This document shows, in pieces, positions 2,333 to 9,011 of a DNA stretch of 32,043 nt (the first letter of the stretch is position 1; each line of letters opens with the position of its first letter). Under the pieces are notes generated by a model, which was given only the letters and a program-made list of their open reading frames with translations, made no database searches and had not been told where the DNA came from. Made by a program: the position numbers and the translations under genes. Source of the DNA: a virus (taxonomy: Duplodnaviria > Heunggongvirae > Uroviricota > Caudoviricetes); the IMG/VR virus record IMGVR_UViG_2713896773_000025; one strand, written 5' to 3'.

Positions 2333-3226
2333 ATGTCAGCTAAAAATGAACTTGTCGAACTGATGAAAGCAAAAGGTCTTAACCAGACACAGGTCGCCCG
2401 CGCCATTGGTAAGAGCTCGGCCGTAATCAGCCAGTATCTGAATAATAAATACGACGGCGATATTGTATCGCTGGAAAACGATATTCGTAGCTTTATCGAT
2501 CGTCAGCATGAAAAAGAACGTTCGGCACGTATCAGCGTCAAATTTGTTGATACCCCAACAACGCGCAAAGCCGTTGATGTTATACGCATGGCACACGTCG
2601 AAGGTGATATCAACGTGCTCTACGGCGAAGCCGGTCTGGGCAAGACGATGATTTGCAAAGCCTACGTCTCCAAATACCGGGATGCGTTGCTGATTGAGGC
2701 AGACCCTGGCTACACCGCACGGGTAGTCCTGGAAGAGCTCTGTAACCTGCTGGGGCTCAGTACGCGCGGCAATATGCACGAACTCAGCGAGGCCTGCATC
2801 AACAAGCTGCGCGACTCCGGACGCGTGCTGATTATTGATGAAGCCGAGAACCTCCCTCTGCGTGCGCTGGAATCTATCCGCCGCATCCATGACAAAACGG
2901 GGATCGGCATCGTCCTGGTTGGTATGCCTCGCCTGATTCTGAACCTCAAGGGCAAACGCGGTGAGCTCGTACAGCTCTATAGCCGTGTCGGTTTCGCCCT
3001 CAACCTCGGGCATAGCCTGCCGGGTGCTGATATTGACGTCATCGCCAGCAGCGTTCTCCCGGATGGCCTGAATGAAGACCTGAGCAAAGCGCTGTTCAAT
3101 GCGTCAAAAGGTAACGCCCGCCGATTGTTCAAGCTGCTGCGCGGTGCGGTCCGCACCAGCGCGATGAATGATGTTCCGGTCAGCGGTCATATCGTCAACC
3201 AGATAGCTGAAATGCTGATCCATTAA
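2333..3226 (+). CDS. B: MuB-like AAA+ ATPase, transposition target DNA activator (297 aa)
   Basis: Walker A GEAGLGKT and Walker B-like LIIDEAE; N-terminal HTH-like segment; GAGGAAG RBS 7 nt upstream; position immediately after A. Confidence 0.88.
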   Translation: MSAKNELVELMKAKGLNQTQVARAIGKSSAVISQYLNNKYDGDIVSLENDIRSFIDRQHEKERSARISVKFVDTPTTRKAVDVIRMAHVEGDINVLYGEAGLGKTMICKAYVSKYRDALLIEADPGYTARVVLEELCNLLGLSTRGNMHELSEACINKLRDSGRVLIIDEAENLPLRALESIRRIHDKTGIGIVLVGMPRLILNLKGKRGELVQLYSRVGFALNLGHSLPGADIDVIASSVLPDGLNEDLSKALFNASKGNARRLFKLLRGAVRTSAMNDVPVSGHIVNQIAEMLIH

Positions 3227-3246: not shown

Positions 3247-3525
3247 ATGCTGACTTTAACATCAGATAACTCGCTGGTTTCAGCGCTGTATCGTACCGAA
3301 GCTGTCGTCGTTTCCCTCCAGGCCCGTGGCGTGGAAGTGAAAGGTATCGTGGTTCGGGAAGGTCAGCCGGTCATTCGTATTCAGCGCCATGACATGTGTG
3401 ATTACCTGCTCACCAGCGGTAAAGCCAGCTACATCGAATATGGCCAGGGGAAATCGGGGAAATACCGCCAGGGCCTTTTCATCCAGGACGGCTGTCGTGT
3501 CGTATGGTCAGAATCTATTCATTGA
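3247..3525 (+). CDS. hypothetical early protein (92 aa)
   Basis: Strong RBS AAGGAGG before ATG; first gene of the semi-essential early region; no family recognised. Confidence 0.55.
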   Translation: MLTLTSDNSLVSALYRTEAVVVSLQARGVEVKGIVVREGQPVIRIQRHDMCDYLLTSGKASYIEYGQGKSGKYRQGLFIQDGCRVVWSESIH

Positions 3526-3537
3526 AGGAGAAAATAA

Positions 3538-3729
3538 GTGGCAAAAGTCGTAATCAGCATAACCGATGCACCGCGCGGTATCCGTGTGGAGTGCCAGGTT
3601 GTTCCGGATGACAAAGACAGTGAACTGACTCAGAAAGTCGCAGCCACTGTGGGATATGGCCTGGCTGGCCATGTTAACGAAAAAATCCGTCATGCAATTC
3701 AGAAAAAGGGGAAGTCCAATGTCCACTGA
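3538..3729 (+). CDS. hypothetical small early protein (63 aa, GTG start)
   Basis: AGGAG RBS before GTG; overlaps the next gene by 11 nt, consistent with coupling. Confidence 0.45.
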   Translation: MAKVVISITDAPRGIRVECQVVPDDKDSELTQKVAATVGYGLAGHVNEKIRHAIQKKGKSNVH

Positions 3730-4369
3730 AAACACCATCAAACAATACACTACCACCCAGGCACCAGAGGGATACTGGACTGATGCTCGCGGCGTTCTGA
3801 CGCCTGTCAGTCTGATTAAAGAAATCGACCGCGACCGCGACCAGCTCGTTGGCGAACTCGTTACGCAGGCGATTATCGTTTCCTCTGCCCTGAGTGAGCT
3901 GAAATCACGCGCCTTTGCTGATATTCAGGCATTTATCGACCTTTCAGCGGAGAAATACGGGGCCATCAAAGGCGGTAAAAAAGGTAATGTCACGCTCTAC
4001 AGCTTTGATGGCCGTTTCAAAATCCAGCGAGCCATGCAGGACCGAATCGCCCTGGACGAGCGGATTCAGACTGCAAAGGCGCTTATTGATACCTGCCTCG
4101 CTGACTGGACAGAAGGTGCCCGTCCTGAGCTGAAGGCGCTGGTCAATGAGGCGTTTGATACTGACAAAGAAGGCAATATCAATACCGGGCGTGTCCTGGC
4201 ACTCCGTCGTCTGGAAATTGATGATGATCGCTGGCAGCAAGCCATGCAGGCCATCGGTGAGGCTGTGCAGGTCGTCGGTAGCCGTTCTTATATCCGCGTG
4301 TATGAGCGTGTTGGTGATTCGGATGAATATCGTCCGATTGCCCTCGATATTGCAGGTGCAGGGGTGTGA
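3719..4369 (+). CDS. Mu-family early protein, DUF3164-like (216 aa)
   Basis: ATG at 3719 preceded by GGGGA RBS (track ORF begins earlier at 3656); sequence type recalled from Mu-like prophage early regions; assignment unverified. Confidence 0.5.
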   Translation: MSTENTIKQYTTTQAPEGYWTDARGVLTPVSLIKEIDRDRDQLVGELVTQAIIVSSALSELKSRAFADIQAFIDLSAEKYGAIKGGKKGNVTLYSFDGRFKIQRAMQDRIALDERIQTAKALIDTCLADWTEGARPELKALVNEAFDTDKEGNINTGRVLALRRLEIDDDRWQQAMQAIGEAVQVVGSRSYIRVYERVGDSDEYRPIALDIAGAGV

Positions 4370-4370
4370 T

Positions 4371-4595
4371 ATGTCTGGAAAAATTAAAGAAAATTCAGCT
4401 CGCAACAACTACGGATGCTATGCCACCGGCGCGATTCGTGCCGAACGTAATGGCGAATATTCCAGGGCTGCTGAATTATGGGGTAAAGCGTTGATGTTTG
4501 CTCGTGGCACTTCCGGTCGATTCTGGGCCACTCGTCGACTGGAGTTCTGCGCGAACGCGGCTACTCGCGGCTGGGGGATTTCGGATGAAAGCTAA
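4371..4595 (+). CDS. small regulator-like protein, possibly ANR/PerC-like (74 aa)
   Basis: Internal ATG at 4371 two nt after the upstream stop; GEYSRAAELWGKAL...ARRLEFC motif reminiscent of ANR-family small regulators; family call is tentative. Confidence 0.4.
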   Translation: MSGKIKENSARNNYGCYATGAIRAERNGEYSRAAELWGKALMFARGTSGRFWATRRLEFCANAATRGWGISDES

Positions 4596-4776
4596 AGAGT
4601 TCAACCAAAAATATCCGGTTGGTAGCGTCTTTATTTATCAGCCGAATCCGGTTTTACGTGGTGGTAAGGTCGTCAGCACCGTTGATCTGGCTCGCGACTG
4701 CCGCGATGTATCGGTAGTTGAAATAAATCAGGAACCTTATTTCGCCAATATTAAATCGCTGATACCTGCTGGCTGA
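4585..4776 (+). CDS. small protein, paralog copy 1 (63 aa)
   Basis: N-terminal AKEFNQKYPVGSVFIY matches AKTFNQRFPVGSQFHY of the ORF at 7365..7574; internal ATG at 4585. Confidence 0.5.
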   Translation: MKAKEFNQKYPVGSVFIYQPNPVLRGGKVVSTVDLARDCRDVSVVEINQEPYFANIKSLIPAG

Positions 4777-4856
4777 AATAACTTTTAATTAAACCTGTTT
4801 TAAATATGGCGTAAACCTGCCGGGGGTGGCTTACGCCTGAATTAAGGAGTTCTGTA

Positions 4857-5576
4857 ATGGAAAATAAAGAGAAATATATCCAGAGAATTAAAAAGCTGCT
4901 CGCGATGGCGCGTAATAACTCCAGCGCCGAAGAAGCCGCACTTGCCCTTAGCCGCGCTCAGCGCCTGATGGAAACCCACAAACTGACTGAGGCTGATGCT
5001 GATTTGATGGATATCAATGAAGCTTCTACCCAGAAGGCCCCCTCTCATGCTGAGAAGATGCCGGAATATATGGCAATACTGGCAGAGATGGTCGCGCGCG
5101 TTTTTGGCGTGAAGTTTTACACCAGCCATGGCGCTGAGCAGTGGGGCAAGCCAGCAAAACGCACCATACACTATTACGGCCCCGACGAACGCCCTCAGAT
5201 AGCGGCATATTCATTCGAAGTTCTGGGTAAGCAACTGGCGAAAGCCCGCCGTGATTACCTCTCCACATTACGCAAGAACATCAAACAGGCCACAAAAGTT
5301 GCCCGCGCCGATACCTTCTGTTCCGCCTGGGTCAACGGTGCTTATGCCGTTGTCAGTGATTTCGCTGTTACGGAGGCGGAGACAACGCTGATGGAGTGTT
5401 ACCGCAGCAGGAAATTAAGCGAAGGCATGAAAAAGCTGGAACCGCGCAAACCCGGCAAAGCCAGGGGAACGGATAAGGCGGAAAACGAGGGATATCTGGC
5501 TGGCCGCAATGCGCAGCTGCATCACGCGGTAAGCAGTTCAGCTAATAAATGCGAACAGATTGGAGTGACAAAATGA
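4857..5576 (+). CDS. DUF2786-like phage protein (239 aa)
   Basis: AAGGAG RBS; N-terminal KYIQRIKKLLAMARNNSSAEEAALALSRAQRLM resembles the DUF2786 signature recalled from phage early regions. Confidence 0.6.
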   Translation: MENKEKYIQRIKKLLAMARNNSSAEEAALALSRAQRLMETHKLTEADADLMDINEASTQKAPSHAEKMPEYMAILAEMVARVFGVKFYTSHGAEQWGKPAKRTIHYYGPDERPQIAAYSFEVLGKQLAKARRDYLSTLRKNIKQATKVARADTFCSAWVNGAYAVVSDFAVTEAETTLMECYRSRKLSEGMKKLEPRKPGKARGTDKAENEGYLAGRNAQLHHAVSSSANKCEQIGVTK

Positions 5577-5926
5577 AAATCTCGCCTCAACTGGAAACTA
5601 CGCCAGTCAAAGAACTCGTAGCAGCCGGGCATGCGCTGGCGAAAGAACTACATTGCGCTGAGTGTGCCGCGCTGGTTCGCAATCTGGCAACAGCGCTTGA
5701 TGTCCAGTTTGCTCGTGCCAACGCGCTAACGGTTGTTGATGTTAGTGACCCTAATGTGCTGGCGCAGCTGGATGAGCTGGAAGCTGTGAACGAGCTGTTT
5801 TTACGTGCAAAGCAGCTGATGTATCAATCAGGAGGGGCACCAATCGAAAACTCATTGAATCCGATTGATGCATGGCTGTATGACGCAGAACGCGCTGCCG
5901 CTGCCGCTGCCGGTAAAGGAGAGTGA
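5573..5926 (+). CDS. hypothetical protein (117 aa)
   Basis: ATGA start/stop overlap with upstream gene; Ala-rich C-terminus; no family recognised. Confidence 0.5.
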   Translation: MKISPQLETTPVKELVAAGHALAKELHCAECAALVRNLATALDVQFARANALTVVDVSDPNVLAQLDELEAVNELFLRAKQLMYQSGGAPIENSLNPIDAWLYDAERAAAAAAGKGE

Positions 5927-5927
5927 T

Positions 5928-6173
5928 ATGGCTACCAACGAAATTCTCATAGTTAACAAAATTGGGCGCGCTGATGGTGATTACGGATGCTACTGCCCTC
6001 ACTGCGGAGAGCCGATGTTTTTCAGCGATGATGAACTGGAAGACATCCGAGGCTCTCAATACCAGCATTCTCGGGTGATAAATCTCAGAACCGGTGAACG
6101 GTGTGATGGATGGCTGGAAGTATCTCCCAATGCGGGTTACTCGCGAATCTTGTTCGACCAGGGAGATGAATAG
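5928..6173 (+). CDS. small Cys-containing protein, putative zinc ribbon (81 aa)
   Basis: CYCPHCGE followed by a downstream RCDGW segment suggests a Cys-based metal-binding knuckle; starts 2 nt after upstream stop. Confidence 0.45.
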   Translation: MATNEILIVNKIGRADGDYGCYCPHCGEPMFFSDDELEDIRGSQYQHSRVINLRTGERCDGWLEVSPNAGYSRILFDQGDE

Positions 6174-6178
6174 AGAAA

Positions 6179-6438
6179 TGACCATCACCGAAATTTTGAA
6201 TACCGGACTCGCCTTCATGGGTTGGCTATTCATCATGGTCCAGGCCGGTAAGTGGTTTACATCTGTTGTCCTGAAATCGTGGGATAAACACCGCAAGGCA
6301 TCACGTCGCCAGAAGGCTGTTGATGAGTTGTACGACGCTTTCGATCTGCAGAGCATTGAGCCCGGAACAACCGTTCGTCTTGCCACAAAGGGCGCTCTGA
6401 CAATCATGATGTTTCGCTCTGAGGCGGATGCCAAATGA
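6179..6438 (+). CDS. small membrane protein (86 aa)
   Basis: Hydrophobic segment LAFMGWLFIMVQAGKWF near the N-terminus, then a basic stretch. Confidence 0.45.
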
Positions 6439-6605
6439 CAAACCGCAAAGTAAGAAGACTGCTGCGCATGCCTTTCAAATTCAGTAACCGTAAAGCGATG
6501 ACAGGCTGGCCATCAACGATACCCCGGCCTGGCAACGAGTGGTGCGACAAGAAGAAACGCAGCGCTGCACAGAACCGCTGGAAAAATCATGTGAGGTTTC
6601 TCTGA
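6435..6605 (+). CDS. small basic ORF (56 aa), below the ORF-track length cutoff
   Basis: ATG at 6435 overlaps upstream stop (ATGA) and its TGA at 6603..6605 overlaps the next ATG (TGATG); coupling pattern suggests a real gene. Translation MTNRKVRRLLRMPFKFSNRKAMTGWPSTIPRPGNEWCDKKKRSAAQNRWKNHVRFL. Confidence 0.3.
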   Translation: MTNRKVRRLLRMPFKFSNRKAMTGWPSTIPRPGNEWCDKKKRSAAQNRWKNHVRFL

Positions 6606-6979
6606 TGAATATAAATAAACATTCTGAGCGTAAGCCAGTGGTTTTCATTGCCGGTCCAATGACCGGGTATCACAACTTTAACCGCGATGAATTCAACGCT
6701 GAGGCTCGCATCCTGGAAGAGCGCGGCTTCACCGTTCTCAACCCGGCCATTCTTCCAGACGGCCTGCAGCATGAGCAGTACCTGCAAATTACATTGTCCA
6801 TGCTTGAGCAGGCTGATGCGGTATTCCTGCTGAACGGGTGGGAAAAGAGCACCGGCGCTACCAGGGAGTTTGATCGCGCCTGTGAGCTAGGGCTGCTGTT
6901 CCTTTACCAGGACTGGGAAAGCGTGTCGATTGCGATCCACCGTAAGCGTCACCCATTAACGGAGGTGAGTTATGCATAG
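6605..6979 (+). CDS. DUF4406 / nucleoside 2-deoxyribosyltransferase-like protein (124 aa)
   Basis: VVFIAGPMTG near the N-terminus and overall pattern recalled from the DUF4406 family; ATG at 6605 chosen over the GTG at 6539 because of stop-start coupling. Confidence 0.55.
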   Translation: MNINKHSERKPVVFIAGPMTGYHNFNRDEFNAEARILEERGFTVLNPAILPDGLQHEQYLQITLSMLEQADAVFLLNGWEKSTGATREFDRACELGLLFLYQDWESVSIAIHRKRHPLTEVSYA

Positions 6980-7187
6980 CGTAACGGGCTGCCAGTTCCA
7001 GGATAACGGTAACCGCCGAATCTGGTTCTTCCGCGATAACAGCCAGGTTGTCGAGTTGCTGGCGGTGCCACTTAAGCTGCGGTTCAACTATTACGACGCC
7101 AGTAACCGTAAGGTACGCAATAAGGGGACTCAGGCTGATATGAAGAAGGCGATTGAATCTTTCAAGAAACTTCGGGGGATAAAGTGA
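6972..7187 (+). CDS. hypothetical small protein (71 aa)
   Basis: Overlaps upstream gene by 8 nt; no family recognised. Confidence 0.4.
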   Translation: MHSVTGCQFQDNGNRRIWFFRDNSQVVELLAVPLKLRFNYYDASNRKVRNKGTQADMKKAIESFKKLRGIK

Positions 7188-7405
7188 TGGATATAGCTTT
7201 CATTATCATATTGCTGGCGATGTATTTAACACTTGGCTGGTGTTGGGCATGCATCCTTGTCCGATTAGTGGGATTAGCTAATTTATCCCGACAGAATTGC
7301 TGGTTTGCCTTTCTCTTATGGCCTTTGAGCATTATCGCGACCGATGCGAATCTGGAGGAAAACGATGGGACATCTCCTGAGAAATCTGACAGCAAAGACC
7401 TTTAA
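7184..7405 (+). CDS. small membrane protein (about 72 aa)
   Basis: Two hydrophobic segments (IAFIIILLAMYLTLGWCWACILV and CWFAFLLWPLSIIA); GTG at 7184 or ATG at 7187. Confidence 0.4.
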   Translation: MMDIAFIIILLAMYLTLGWCWACILVRLVGLANLSRQNCWFAFLLWPLSIIATDANLEENDGTSPEKSDSKDL

Positions 7406-7574
7406 CCAGCGCTTCCCCGTTGGCTCACAGTTCCATTATTACCTGACACCTGGTGTATCGGAGCGGGAAACTGTAATAACCCGCCCGGCAGCCAGGCATA
7501 TGCGCAATGGTCGTCTGGTTGTCAGGGGCGAAGGGAAAATCGGTGGTATATCAGTCAGCAAAATGAAACCTTGA
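7365..7574 (+). CDS. small protein, paralog copy 2 (69 aa)
   Basis: GGAGG RBS before ATG at 7365; N-terminal motif shared with the ORF at 4585..4776. Confidence 0.5.
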   Translation: MGHLLRNLTAKTFNQRFPVGSQFHYYLTPGVSERETVITRPAARHMRNGRLVVRGEGKIGGISVSKMKP

Positions 7575-7580
7575 AAGTAA

Positions 7581-7622
7581 GTCATTACAGCAGGCACTTC
7601 ATAAAGTGCCTGCTGTAATGAC
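7581..7622. repeat. perfect 19-bp inverted repeat with 4-nt loop
   Basis: GTCATTACAGCAGGCACTT cata AAGTGCCTGCTGTAATGAC read directly from sequence; lies between the last early accessory ORF and the gemA RBS. Confidence 0.85.
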
Positions 7623-7641: not shown

Positions 7642-8118
7642 ATGTCCACGCCAGCAAAACGAGGCCTTATAGGTGCAATTAAAGCCGGTCAGGCATATCT
7701 GGGGTGGGATGAGGTAACCTACCGTAGTGTTCTGTCTCGCTTATGCAACGGTAAAACATCATCCACTAAATGCACCCTCGACGAGCTGCAGGCTGTCAGG
7801 GAATATATGCATGACAAGGGTTTTCCTCGCTACTCAGCAAAACACGGTCGACGCCCAAAGGTTGCCAATACGCGCGAGTCAATTCTTTCTAAAATTAACG
7901 CATTACTTGCAGATGCAAAACGTCCGTGGAATTATGCCGAGAAAATGTGCGATCATATGTTTCACGTCAAATACATCGAGTGGTTGACGACTGAACAGTT
8001 AACCAAACTCATGCAGGCTCTCAGCATTGATGCGAGTCGGCGAAAAAAGCGGGAGCGTAATAATGAATCTGGAACAGGTAACGGAGCTGCTGCCATCAGC
8101 AGTGATTCAAATAGCTGA
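7642..8118 (+). CDS. gemA: GemA-like regulatory protein (158 aa)
   Basis: ATG at 7642 with AGGAG RBS; KRGLIGAIKAGQAYLGWDE...YRSVL pattern recalled from the Mu GemA/DUF1018 family; sits immediately before the Mor-like gene. Confidence 0.7.
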   Translation: MSTPAKRGLIGAIKAGQAYLGWDEVTYRSVLSRLCNGKTSSTKCTLDELQAVREYMHDKGFPRYSAKHGRRPKVANTRESILSKINALLADAKRPWNYAEKMCDHMFHVKYIEWLTTEQLTKLMQALSIDASRRKKRERNNESGTGNGAAAISSDSNS

Positions 8119-8497
8119 CCTGATAGGCTTCCCGGCGACCGAGCAGCTTCTTTCTGCTTTTGGTGGCACCACGTTCCCGATAGGTAAAGGCCTCCGCGCT
8201 ATGGGGGCCAGCCGCGCAGCCCTCCTGCGCAATACTATCGGCGATGATAAAACCCAATTACTCATCAAGAATTTCGGCGGAGAAGTTCTCTATTTACCGC
8301 GCTGTGATCGTGCCCTTCGTGAATTACGCAACCGCCGCTTTCTCGCCGAGTTCGCCGAAGTGCGTGAACAAGGTTCATCCTCTCTTATGGCCATGACCTT
8401 TCTTTGCCCTAAGTATGGATTCAGCGATCGTTTTGGATGGCAGTTACTAAGCCAGCACAGACAAAACACATCAATCAATCAACAAGAACTTTTTTAA
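8063..8497 (+). CDS. mor: Mor/C-family transcriptional activator (144 aa)
   Basis: GGEVLYLPR...LRELRNRRFLAEF...YGFSDR resembles the Mor/C core GG.VYIPR...L..DL.I...F.G.N..EL...YG; overlaps the gemA 3' end. Confidence 0.75.
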   Translation: MNLEQVTELLPSAVIQIADLIGFPATEQLLSAFGGTTFPIGKGLRAMGASRAALLRNTIGDDKTQLLIKNFGGEVLYLPRCDRALRELRNRRFLAEFAEVREQGSSSLMAMTFLCPKYGFSDRFGWQLLSQHRQNTSINQQELF

Positions 8498-8510: not shown

Positions 8511-9011
8511 ATGGAGTTTTTAATTGCTTTAATTATATTCGGTGCTTCTGTTGCTGTTTACAAAGATGCTATCACCAATAACATTGCAAGACCTGCCCGT
8601 TGGGGGATTGGTTCAGCATTCATATTCTTCATTGTCATTCCATTGTATCTATTTAAAAGAAAAAAATTAATCGGAAGTGCATTATCAGACTCGGATGATG
8701 CCAGTAGTGTCCAGGGCGGAAAAAATGTTAGCCCCTTATCAGTTTATGTCCTGATGTTCATTTTAGCATTTATTGCCCCAGTGATTAATTTTTACAAAGG
8801 TGATTTACCTGGCTGTGATTCATCCGATGTCCATTCTGTTCTTACAGAGTTGCTGAATGGAGAAAAATTCTCTGAGCCCGCGCAAATGAGTTATGACCGG
8901 GTTAATGCAGTGAGACACTGTAACTTGACTGTTTCTGATAGAGTGTTTTCATATACAGTGAAATGGTACAGTGAAGAGAAAGATCAGTTTGTTGTACAGT
9001 TTGACAACTAA
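8511..9011 (+). CDS. AT-rich membrane protein, candidate moron (166 aa)
   Basis: Three hydrophobic helices plus a roughly 70-aa C-terminal soluble domain; gene is markedly more AT-rich than its neighbours. Confidence 0.6.
   Translation: MEFLIALIIFGASVAVYKDAITNNIARPARWGIGSAFIFFIVIPLYLFKRKKLIGSALSDSDDASSVQGGKNVSPLSVYVLMFILAFIAPVINFYKGDLPGCDSSDVHSVLTELLNGEKFSEPAQMSYDRVNAVRHCNLTVSDRVFSYTVKWYSEEKDQFVVQFDN

What the first reader, a model, noticed from the sequence alone, without database searches (positions are those of the whole stretch)
3247..7574. Semi-essential early region is a chain of about 14 translationally coupled small ORFs without recognisable Gam or Kil
Between B and gemA nearly every gene starts within a few nt of the upstream stop (ATGA / TGATG overlaps) and most have good RBSs, so they are probably real. 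I could not recognise the Mu Gam host-nuclease inhibitor or other named early functions apart from tentative DUF3164, DUF2786, DUF4406 and ANR-like assignments. This region is where Mu-family phages keep host-manipulation and anti-defence genes, so it is the most likely place in the window for undescribed functions.
Basis: partly seen in the sequence, partly recalled or inferred. Interest (0 to 1): 0.5.

Follow-up and report, generated by a model that had tools for sequence, protein, structure and literature searches.

The report
Mu-like prophage early accessory operon
This stretch is the ordinary early accessory operon of a Mu-type transposable prophage: 14 real, tightly packed small genes, one of them a diverged Kil, and an uncharacterised protein (DUF3164) sitting exactly where related phages carry the nuclease inhibitor Gam.

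Summary
Between B (2333-3226) and gemA (7642-8118) lie 14 same-strand genes covering 98% of the DNA. Eleven of 13 junctions are overlaps or gaps of at most 4 nt, and most genes are under purifying selection.

- Gam is absent by sequence, profile and fold.
- Kil is not absent. g1, the first gene after B, is a remote Kil homologue (profile-profile 87-99%).
- The DUF3164, DUF2786(+DUF7168), DUF4406 and ANR calls are confirmed. g9 is DUF4752 (P22 EaF-like).
- g7-g10 is a cassette shared with lambdoid and P22-like phages.
- Thirteen of the 14 products match a catalogued family (g13 only weakly); g2 has only prophage relatives. Eleven have no assigned function. No anti-defence or defence function was detected.

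The main new lead is that DUF3164 and Gam occupy the same slot and never co-occur:
- 0 of 160 loci chosen for holding one of them hold the other.
- Within one lineage: 40 Gam, 38 DUF3164, 0 both, 1 neither.
- JBD30 (Gam) and LPB1 (DUF3164) have 95-99% identical flanks.

DUF3164 is not homologous to Gam and its model matches no solved fold. That it substitutes for Gam is an inference (about 0.4).

Overall this is an ordinary new member of a known kind.

The parts
3247..3525 (+). g1, 92 aa: diverged Kil-family protein, first gene after B
   Evidence: AGGAGG Shine-Dalgarno. phrog_2041 at 1.4e-16. dN/dS 0.12-0.30. 59 representative clusters in 1.8 billion proteins. hhalign of the family profile against Mu Kil alone: 68.9%. 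Against the Kil family with intermediates: 98.7%, E 2e-16, full length. Against non-overlapping Kil profiles: 87-88%; reversed control 0.2%. jackhmmer from Mu Kil reaches it at iteration 4. The same gene sits between B and Gam or DUF3164 in 78 of 79 BcepMu-like loci.
3538..3729 (+). g2, 63 aa, GTG start: small basic protein conserved in relatives
   Evidence: AGGAG Shine-Dalgarno. Syntenic homologues at 39-67% identity in L001-L005. dN/dS 0.24-0.37. No PHROG or Pfam family. The N-terminal 15 residues resemble Mu gp7/E6 (hhalign 74.7%).
3719..4369 (+). g3, 216 aa, acidic (pI 4.9): DUF3164, in the slot that holds Gam in related phages
4371..4595 (+). g4, 74 aa: ANR-family (AraC negative regulator) small protein
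   Evidence: NCBIfam NF033650 at 64.7 bits, cut-off 32. Weak PerC hit. All seven ANR signature residues are present, read against the signature published in PMC4983702. Syntenic in L001-L005.
4585..4776 (+). g5, 63 aa: small basic protein, paralogue of g14
   Evidence: phrog_5591 at 4.8e-28. BLASTP against g14 3e-9. In 54 of 79 DUF3164 loci. dN/dS 0.11-0.16.
4857..5576 (+). g6, 239 aa: DUF2786 + DUF7168 protein
5573..5926 (+). g7, 117 aa, acidic: first gene of the variable cassette g7-g10
   Evidence: ATGA overlap with g6. Absent from L002-L005; in L001 only a partial match to its first 52 residues. 43% identity to phage Omnitron and 85% over the C-terminal part to phage Flotzy. DNA patches shared with ES18 gp41, annotated Ead/Ea22-like.
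5928..6173 (+). g8, 81 aa: four-cysteine zinc-ribbon-like protein
   Evidence: phrog_21581 at 1.2e-25. Weak Zn_ribbon hit. DNA 71.5% identical to Salmonella phage SEN22. The exact protein is indexed in 461 blocks of the assembly collection.
6178..6438 (+). g9, 86 aa (90 aa if it starts at 6166): DUF4752 / P22 EaF-like protein
   Evidence: Pfam DUF4752 7e-37; the profile starts at the second Met. phrog_667. 70-74% DNA identity to P22-like and Klebsiella phages, annotated EaF or DUF4752. Independent gene call at 6178.
6435..6605 (+). g10, 56 aa, very basic (pI 12): least certain gene
   Evidence: ATGA and TGATG overlaps. Full-length 41-43% tblastn matches to hypothetical genes of phiV10-like and Stx-converting phages, E 2e-4. 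Called independently in L008. No Pfam family.
6605..6979 (+). g11, 124 aa: DUF4406, nucleoside 2-deoxyribosyltransferase-like
   Evidence: Pfam DUF4406 2e-27 and a weak Nuc_deoxyri_tr2 hit. phrog_355, annotated 'nucleoside 2-deoxyribosyltransferase', 3.8e-35. dN/dS 0.03-0.12. Invariant G17-P18 and the motif S82-x-G84-A85-x-x-E88.
6972..7187 (+). g12, 71 aa, basic: conserved early protein of unknown function
   Evidence: phrog_9400 at 2.2e-19. In all five relatives and 40 of 79 DUF3164 loci. dN/dS 0.04-0.14.
7187..7405 (+). g13, 72 aa: small membrane protein with an acidic tail
   Evidence: Hydrophobic N-terminal segment, residues 1-31. Weak phrog_6436 hit. Positional homologues at 36-92% identity in L001, L003, L004 and L005. 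dN/dS 0.5-0.8.
7365..7574 (+). g14, 69 aa, basic: paralogue of g5; overlaps g13 by 41 nt
   Evidence: GGAGG Shine-Dalgarno. phrog_19503 at 7e-28. Homologues in L001 and L002.
7581..7622 (.). Perfect 19-bp hairpin in the 67-nt gap before gemA; marks the end of the chain
   Evidence: RNA fold -35.7 kcal/mol, z -8.3. Related hairpins lie at the same place in L001 and L002, and different hairpins in L003, L005 and Mu. A terminator and promoter (Pgem, or the semi-early promoter) are annotated at this position in LPB1 and Mu.

Best explanation
The region is the semi-essential early (SEE) accessory operon of a Mu-family transposable prophage of Enterobacteriaceae.

**Expression (inferred).** The genes are probably read as part of the long early transcript that starts upstream of ner. 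No convincing internal promoter or terminator was found. Stop-start overlaps would let ribosomes pass from one small gene to the next.

**Content, as shown by homology**
- g1: a diverged Kil. In Mu, Kil is a host-killing, septation-blocking protein.
- g3: DUF3164.
- g4: an ANR-family small regulator. Characterised members bind AraC-type activators and H-NS.
- g5 and g14: two paralogous small basic proteins.
- g6: a DUF2786/DUF7168 protein.
- g11: a DUF4406 nucleoside-deoxyribosyltransferase-like protein.
- g13: a small membrane protein.
- g7-g10: a four-gene cassette whose relatives lie in lambdoid and P22-like phages (EaF/DUF4752, Ead/Ea22-like patches).

**Gam (inferred).** Gam is missing. 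DUF3164 sits in the Gam slot and most likely supplies the same kind of service: keeping host RecBCD-type nucleases off linear phage DNA. It would do so through an unrelated, acidic protein, so more likely by binding the nuclease than by capping DNA ends like Ku.
For: **Operon and gene reality**
- Junctions, tiling, Shine-Dalgarno motifs.
- Purifying selection.
- Identical independent gene calls.
- Promoter-like and terminator-like sites not above the shuffled expectation.
- Mu-type flanks.

**Kil**
- Position directly after B.
- Profile-profile 87-99%, with a reversed control at 0.2%.
- Iterative search from Mu Kil reaches g1.

**Family assignments:**; ANR signature residues checked against PMC4983702.

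**Cassette mosaicism:**

**Gam slot**
- 80 DUF3164 loci hold no Gam and 80 Gam loci hold no DUF3164.
- Among 79 loci of one lineage (B at least 81% identical): 40 Gam, 38 DUF3164, 0 both, 1 neither. Both genes start about 290-300 nt after B.
- Swaps between homologous flanks: KP12/PhiKM, L028/L152, L051/L150, L022/L147, L077/L162, and JBD30/LPB1 with 95-99% identical flanks.
- JBD30 Gam is reported to be an end-binding RecBCD antagonist (PMC12407980).
- A DUF3164 protein was detected in virion proteomes of two roseophages (PMC5488378).
Against: - Transcription as one unit and translational coupling are inferred from layout only.
- g1 does not reach the PHROG Kil families directly. With strictly non-overlapping profiles only the N-terminal 38 columns align. 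Mu Kil lacks the family's conserved Cys51.
- DUF3164 shows no homology to Gam (hhalign 0.16%).
- DUF3164 has no Ku-like or any other recognisable fold, and it is acidic.
- Sharing a slot can also mean unrelated cargo at a recombination hot spot.
- The counts are not phylogenetically independent.
- No experiment on any DUF3164 protein was found.
Confidence: 0.7

Rival explanations
1. DUF3164 and Gam are functionally unrelated cargo. The position after the Kil-family gene is simply a hot spot where early-operon cassettes are exchanged, and phages without Gam do without end protection.
For: - No sequence or fold relation.
- The early region is clearly mosaic: the g7-g10 cassette, and patchy presence of g1, g4, g5, g6 and g12 in both Gam and DUF3164 loci.
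- In JBD30/LPB1 the swap also involves a second small gene.
- PMC12407980 reports phages that appear not to exclude RecBCD.
Against: - Strict either-or occupancy with almost no empty slots (1 of 79) inside one lineage.
- The same alternation recurs in at least five further pairs from Enterobacteriaceae and Pseudomonas.
- DUF3164 is one of the most widely kept early genes of transposable phages: 209 phage records and 2733 homologues.
Confidence: 0.4
2. One reading: the region is mainly an island of undescribed host-takeover or anti-defence genes.
For: - Eleven of 14 products have no known function.
- Neither of the two largest products has a solved or recognisable fold.
- In Pseudomonas Mu-like phages the early region is known to hold host-manipulation genes (general knowledge).
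- The NDT-like g11 could in principle act on nucleotides.
Against: - No hit to any known defence or anti-defence family.
- The core genes (g1-g6, g11, g12) are syntenic and conserved across genera at low dN/dS. That fits phage-cycle accessory functions better than fast-turnover counter-defence genes.
- Only g7-g10 behave like exchangeable cargo.
Confidence: 0.25
3. Some of the 14 ORFs (g10, g13, perhaps g7) are not real genes but chance ORFs between real ones.
For: - g10 is 56 aa with only weak homologues.
- g13 has dN/dS of 0.5-0.8 and only a weak PHROG hit.
- g7 has only partial homologues.
Against: - All three fill otherwise non-coding space exactly, with overlapping stops and starts.
- All three are called by an independent gene finder.
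- g10 has full-length matches in about 16 phage records.
- g13 has positional homologues in four relatives.
Confidence: 0.12

Closest known systems
Phage Mu semi-essential early region (Mup05 kil to Mup15, between B and gemA)
   Same: Same place, orientation and style: a run of small abutting genes between B and gemA-mor. Homologous Ner, A, B, GemA and Mor. A Kil-family gene comes first after B. g2 shares an N-terminal motif with Mu gp7.
   Different: No Gam. None of Mu gp6, gp8, gp9 or gp11-gp14 has a homologue here, nor the reverse, by iterative search. A and B are only 23-28% identical to Mu's. The late genes resemble siphoviral D3112/DMS3-type phages.
Early regions of BcepMu, B3-like (JBD18) and some D3112-like (LPB1) transposable phages
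   Same: DUF3164 is present (BcepMu gp05 is 68% identical), often with a DUF2786/DUF7168 gene next to it or nearby, followed by GemA and Mor.
   Different: Different transposase and B types in BcepMu and B3. No ANR, DUF4406 or g7-g10 cassette was seen in those records. Different hosts.
Mu Gam (PF07352, Ku-like DNA-end binder; JBD30 gp13)
   Same: DUF3164 occupies the same slot in the operon and never co-occurs with Gam.
   Different: No sequence homology. No Ku-like fold. 216 aa and acidic. Function untested.
ANR family (Aar of enteroaggregative E. coli)
   Same: g4 scores twice the NCBIfam cut-off, is under 10 kDa, and has all seven signature residues.
   Different: It sits as a conserved early gene of a transposable prophage rather than beside an AraC-type virulence activator. 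The loop before the third helix is 2 residues shorter. Binding partners are unknown.
'ea' accessory genes of P22-like and lambdoid phages (EaF/DUF4752, Ead/Ea22-like)
   Same: g9 is a full-length DUF4752 protein. g7, g8 and g10 have their only relatives in such phages.
   Different: Here they are inserted as one cassette into a Mu-type early operon, between the DUF2786 and DUF4406 genes. Closely related prophages lack the cassette.

Membership tests
Mu Kil family (g1) | Small protein (about 70-110 aa) encoded by the first gene downstream of B | tested here: met
   g1 is 92 aa and starts 20 nt after the B stop. Mu kil starts 18 nt after B.
Mu Kil family (g1) | Detectable sequence homology to Mu Kil | tested here: met
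   Profile-profile 98.7% (E 2e-16, full length) with intermediates. 87-88% with non-overlapping profiles; reversed control 0.2%. jackhmmer from Mu Kil reaches g1 at iteration 4.
Mu Kil family (g1) | Direct match to the PHROG families annotated Kil (2743, 6381, 2679) | tested here: not met
   g1 hits only phrog_2041, of unknown function, at E<=0.01. Mu Kil hits the three Kil PHROGs.
Mu Kil family (g1) | Expression kills the host or blocks septation | not testable with these tools
   Needs an expression experiment.
Mu Gam (PF07352), any product of the window | Match to the Gam profile or to Gam sequences | tested here: not met
   No Pfam or PHROG Gam hit for the 14 products. tblastn with Mu and PhiKM Gam finds nothing in the window at E<=10. 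A Gam HMM finds nothing in the 80 DUF3164 loci fetched from IMG/VR, one of which (L011) is identical to this window, even at E<=50.
Mu Gam (PF07352), g3 as a disguised Gam | Ku-like fold | tested here: not met
DUF3164 (PF11363), g3 | Pfam score above the gathering threshold over the full domain | tested here: met
   275.4 bits against 23.7; profile positions 1-193 of 194.
ANR family (g4) | NCBIfam NF033650 above cut-off; size below 10 kDa | tested here: met
   64.7 bits against 32; 74 aa.
ANR family (g4) | Seven conserved signature residues (A10, E14, A22, W26, A29, W43, R47 of the published signature) | tested here: met
   A21, E25, A33, W37, A40, W52 and R56 of g4 line up with the signature quoted in PMC4983702, given a loop 2 residues shorter. 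Aligned by eye.
ANR family (g4) | Binds an AraC/XylS-family activator (or H-NS) and lowers its activity | not testable with these tools
   Needs two-hybrid or pull-down experiments.
DUF2786 + DUF7168 (g6) | Both Pfam domains above threshold, in that order | tested here: met
   42.9 bits (cut-off 23.9) at residues 6-44 and 95.8 bits (cut-off 25.5) at residues 52-198.
DUF4406 / nucleoside 2-deoxyribosyltransferase-like (g11) | Pfam DUF4406 above threshold | tested here: met
   95.8 bits against 22. phrog_355 at 3.8e-35.
DUF4406 / nucleoside 2-deoxyribosyltransferase-like (g11) | Membership of the true NDT families (PF05014, PF15891) | tested here: not met
   19.4 and 14.3 bits, below the cut-offs of 30 and 28.8. 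No solved relative by sequence or profile. A conserved Glu (E88) is present, but whether it is catalytic is an inference.
DUF4752 / EaF (g9) | Pfam DUF4752 above threshold, full length | tested here: met
   125.8 bits against 27; profile positions 1-83 of 84.
Mu-type SEE operon (the whole region) | Lies between B and gemA-mor, same strand, small abutting genes | tested here: met
   Same layout in Mu and in L001-L005.
Mu-type SEE operon (the whole region) | Transcribed from the early promoter and dispensable for growth | not testable with these tools
   Needs transcript mapping and deletions.

The most novel reading that the evidence does not exclude
DUF3164 is a new, non-Ku class of phage protein that replaces Mu Gam in countering host RecBCD-type nucleases. 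The repeated Gam-to-DUF3164 swaps between near-identical phages may be driven by host defences that sense Gam-type end binding, such as Gabija, which JBD30 Gam licenses.
Probability: 0.35. Interest if true: 0.6.

Novelty: new member of a known kind. Interest (0 to 1): 0.35.

Why it matters
The region itself is a routine Mu-family early operon and changes nothing about how such phages are understood.

Two results are useful for annotation:
- The gene right after B in this and many BcepMu-like prophages can be labelled a Kil-family gene.
- DUF3164, present in thousands of prophages and about 200 isolated transposable phages, is the alternative occupant of the gam slot.

If DUF3164 proves to be a nuclease or end-protection factor, it would fill the 'missing Gam' in many transposable phages. 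It would add a new family of RecBCD antagonists. It would also offer a natural test pair (JBD30 and LPB1) for asking how defences such as Gabija read phage end-protection proteins.

Tried and rejected
- **Gam elsewhere in the window.** None found.
- **g1 zinc site (H48, C51, C83, H92).** It looked invariant among close relatives. In the wider family H48 is kept in only 26% and H92 in 51%, so I dropped it.
- **g1 against Mu Kil, first attempt.** The narrow profile gave only 7.6%. The link became clear only with broader profiles.
- **Sequence searches of PDB for g3, g4, g9, g11, g12 and the g1 family.** Nothing significant.
- **PADLOC on 10 products.** Nothing.
- **Rfam on the whole window.** Nothing.
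- **Other Mu early proteins.** Iterative searches from each of them, and from g2 and g4-g14, gave no further link between Mu and this operon.
- **g10 and the ribosome-associated protein Sra.** 22 bits, below the cut-off. Treated as chance.
- **Literature.** Searches for DUF3164, PF11363, DUF2786 and DUF4406 found no functional study.
- **Long minus-strand ORFs (5751-6434, 3944-4408).** Treated as shadows of the plus-strand genes. Not analysed further.

Full report
**1. What is there**

The window opens with a Ner-type gene (1-228, Pfam HTH_35). A Mu-type transposase follows (230-2287), then an AAA_22 B protein (2333-3226). After the region come GemA (7642-8118) and Mor (8063-8497). Further on lie a GH19 endolysin and Mu-type head genes. 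The late genes are nearest to siphoviral Pseudomonas transposable phages of the D3112/DMS3 type, at about 71% identity in terminase.

The window appears to be IMG/VR contig UViG_2778261231_000009, because the DUF3164 gene sits at identical coordinates there. A prophage with identical layout occurs in NCBI assembly GCA_041137685.1. The exact g8 protein is indexed in 461 blocks of the assembly collection. The 100%-identical DUF3164 cluster carries Salmonella enterica and Enterobacteriaceae names. No isolated phage and only one complete E. coli genome match the region at the DNA level.

**2. The observation**

Choosing starts by Shine-Dalgarno motif and by upstream stop gives 14 plus-strand genes, g1-g14. 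An independent gene caller on the identical prophage gives the same 14. The only differences are that g6 is split by a frameshift there and g9 starts at the second Met (6178), which is also where the Pfam profile begins.

Junction gaps are +12, -11, +1, -11, +80, -4, +1, +4, -4, -1, -8, -1 and -41. Plus-strand ORFs cover 98.2% of the region. In 1000 shuffles the mean was 38% and the maximum 69.8%.

Five diverged relatives carry syntenic homologues of g1-g6 and g11-g13:
- L001, E. coli FDAARGOS_1303
- L002, Phytobacter
- L003, Trabulsiella
- L004, Pantoea stewartii
- L005, Citrobacter murliniae

Amino-acid identity is 34-99%. dN/dS is 0.03-0.40, the same range as B and gemA. Only g13 is higher, at 0.5-0.8.

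Promoter-like and terminator-like sites inside the region are not above the shuffled expectation, and Rfam finds nothing. The chain of tightly packed genes is therefore real. Transcription as one unit and translational coupling are reasonable inferences from the layout, not shown facts.

**3. Gene by gene**

- **g1:** phrog_2041, no assigned function. See section 4.
- **g2:** no family, but conserved in all five relatives. Its first 15 residues resemble Mu gp7.
- **g3:** DUF3164, 3e-82.
- **g4:** ANR family, 64.7 bits against a cut-off of 32. It has all seven signature residues published for ANR proteins (PMC4983702). There is also a weak PerC hit.
- **g5 and g14:** paralogues. In the fetched loci the family has 93 members in 68 loci.
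- **g6:** DUF2786 plus DUF7168.
- **g7:** only partial relatives, in phages Omnitron, Flotzy and TL-2011b.
- **g8:** a four-cysteine protein in phrog_21581.
- **g9:** DUF4752, annotated EaF in a P22-like phage.
- **g10:** very basic, 56 aa, with 41-43% full-length matches to hypothetical genes of phiV10-like and Stx-converting phages.
- **g11:** DUF4406, distantly like nucleoside 2-deoxyribosyltransferases.
- **g12:** phrog_9400.
- **g13:** a small membrane protein.

PADLOC finds nothing among the 10 products scanned.

g7-g10 are missing from the five relatives (only the first 52 residues of g7 match L001), while the flanking DUF2786 and DUF4406 genes are present. So g7-g10 is an inserted cassette whose relatives lie in lambdoid and P22-like phages.

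**4. Kil**

A direct comparison of Mu early proteins with the 14 products gave one weak positional signal: Kil against g1, E 0.064. A narrow g1 profile against Mu Kil scored only 7.6%.

A full-library profile search then gave 59 representative g1-family clusters. With that wider profile the results were:

| Comparison | hhalign probability | Extent |
|---|---|---|
| g1 family vs Mu Kil alone | 68.9% | almost full length |
| vs Kil family gathered by jackhmmer, including intermediates | 98.7%, E 2e-16 | 72 columns |
| vs Kil profiles sharing no sequence with the g1 set | 87-88%, E 3-4e-6 | N-terminal 38 columns |
| vs reversed Kil profile (control) | 0.2% | - |

jackhmmer started from Mu Kil reaches the window's g1 at iteration 4. 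The shared motifs are L-x-A-x-G near the start, R-P-x-I-x-I in the middle and G-C-x-V/I-x-W at the end.

The gene is always the first after B. In BcepMu-like enterobacterial prophages it is present in 78 of 79 loci. I conclude that g1 is a remote Kil-family member, with confidence about 0.8. Its activity is untested.

**5. Gam and DUF3164**

No Gam is detectable in the window.

Its position is nevertheless telling.

- In Klebsiella phage KP12 the order is transposase, B-like, g1-like, DUF3164. In Escherichia phage PhiKM it is transposase, B-like, g1-like, Gam. Their transposase and B are 93-94% identical.
- Among 80 IMG/VR loci fetched by DUF3164, none has Gam within 10 kb. Among 80 fetched by Gam, none has DUF3164. 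There is no weak Gam hit even at E<=50.
- 80 loci were fetched by the PhiKM B-like protein (at least 81% identity), which is neutral with respect to the two genes. The 79 with enough downstream DNA hold 40 Gam, 38 DUF3164, 0 both and 1 neither. Both genes start about 290-300 nt after B.
- Homologous flanks on both sides of the swap are also seen in L028/L152, L051/L150, L022/L147 and L077/L162.
- In Pseudomonas, JBD30 has Gam (gp13) plus a 67-aa gene. LPB1 has DUF3164 at the same point, between flanking genes that are 95-99% identical.

DUF3164 is present in 209 phage records, including BcepMu gp05, B3-like phages, and Ralstonia, Vibrio and Rhodovulum transposable phages. The neighbours I tested in JBD18, BcepMu and LPB1 contain no Pfam Gam.

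A 2025 preprint reports that JBD30 Gam acts as an end-binding RecBCD antagonist, and that this makes the phage visible to Gabija (PMC12407980). A roseophage study detected a DUF3164 protein in virion proteomes (PMC5488378).

What is shown is either-or occupancy of one slot, repeated in several lineages. What is inferred is that DUF3164 does a Gam-like job. Its acidity (pI 4.9) and unrelated fold suggest that, if so, it works differently from a Ku-like end cap. I put this at about 0.4. The main rival is unrelated cargo at a recombination hot spot. I found no paper that assigns DUF3164 a function or notes the alternation. The library does not hold all journals.

**6. The other large protein**

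**7. Comparison with what is known**

The architecture is that of the Mu SEE region. The content overlaps Mu only in Kil, perhaps gp7, and the flanking genes. It is closer to the early regions of BcepMu, B3 and some D3112-type phages through DUF3164 and DUF2786.

The families, however, are catalogued and widespread, and nothing here is a new kind of system.

**8. Verdict**

- Observation: confirmed.
- Interpretation: partly supported. Gam is absent, Kil is present as a remote homologue, the family guesses are right, and there is no evidence for anti-defence.
- Novelty: a new member of a known kind.
- Interest: modest (0.35), carried by the DUF3164/Gam slot alternation, which is directly testable.

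Noticed in passing
window 7581-7622: A perfect 19-bp inverted repeat (RNA fold -35.7 kcal/mol, z -8.3) fills most of the 67-nt gap between g14 and gemA, with no T-run after it on the plus strand. Related hairpins sit at the same place in L001 and L002, and different hairpins in L003, L005 and Mu. LPB1 and Mu are annotated with a terminator and promoter there. Its role (terminator, processing site or operator) is open.
   Followed up: partly
window 8511-9011: A 166-aa ORF between mor and the GH19 endolysin has three hydrophobic segments and lies in the lowest-GC kilobase of the window (44% against 52-57%). It has no Pfam, PHROG or NCBIfam hit, and homologues in only 6 of 79 related loci. It may be a holin-like protein or a moron.
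   Followed up: partly
L253 7600-8321 and L172 6575-7192: Pseudomonas phages JBD30 and LPB1 are 95-99% identical in the flanking early genes, but JBD30 carries Gam plus a 67-aa gene where LPB1 carries DUF3164. This is a ready-made natural pair for testing what DUF3164 does.
   Followed up: yes
L008 4931-5649: In the otherwise identical prophage of GCA_041137685.1 the DUF2786/DUF7168 gene is called as two pieces (84 + 168 aa). This means either a frameshift that inactivates g6 or a sequencing error.
   Followed up: no
window 4585-4776 and 7365-7574: g5 and g14 are paralogues (40% identity over 45 aa) placed 2.6 kb apart. Across the fetched loci the family has 93 members in 68 loci, so many transposable prophages carry two copies.
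   Followed up: partly
window 8063-8118: gemA and mor overlap by 56 nt in different frames, if mor starts at the ATG with the best Shine-Dalgarno motif. PGAP calls the same overlap in L001.
   Followed up: no
window 4777-4856: The only sizeable internal gap (80 nt, between g5 and g6) is AT-rich at its start and holds a small 7-bp stem-loop. Its folding energy is not different from shuffled sequence (z -0.65).
   Followed up: yes
window 5751-6434 (minus strand): A 227-aa TTG-initiated ORF runs antisense to g7-g9. I treated it as a shadow ORF. No evidence for or against it was collected.
   Followed up: no
L005 4470-5361: In the Citrobacter murliniae relative the B gene matches in two overlapping pieces (99% over residues 1-243, 67% over residues 209-297). 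This suggests a recombination junction inside B, where a window-like left part meets a different lineage.
   Followed up: no
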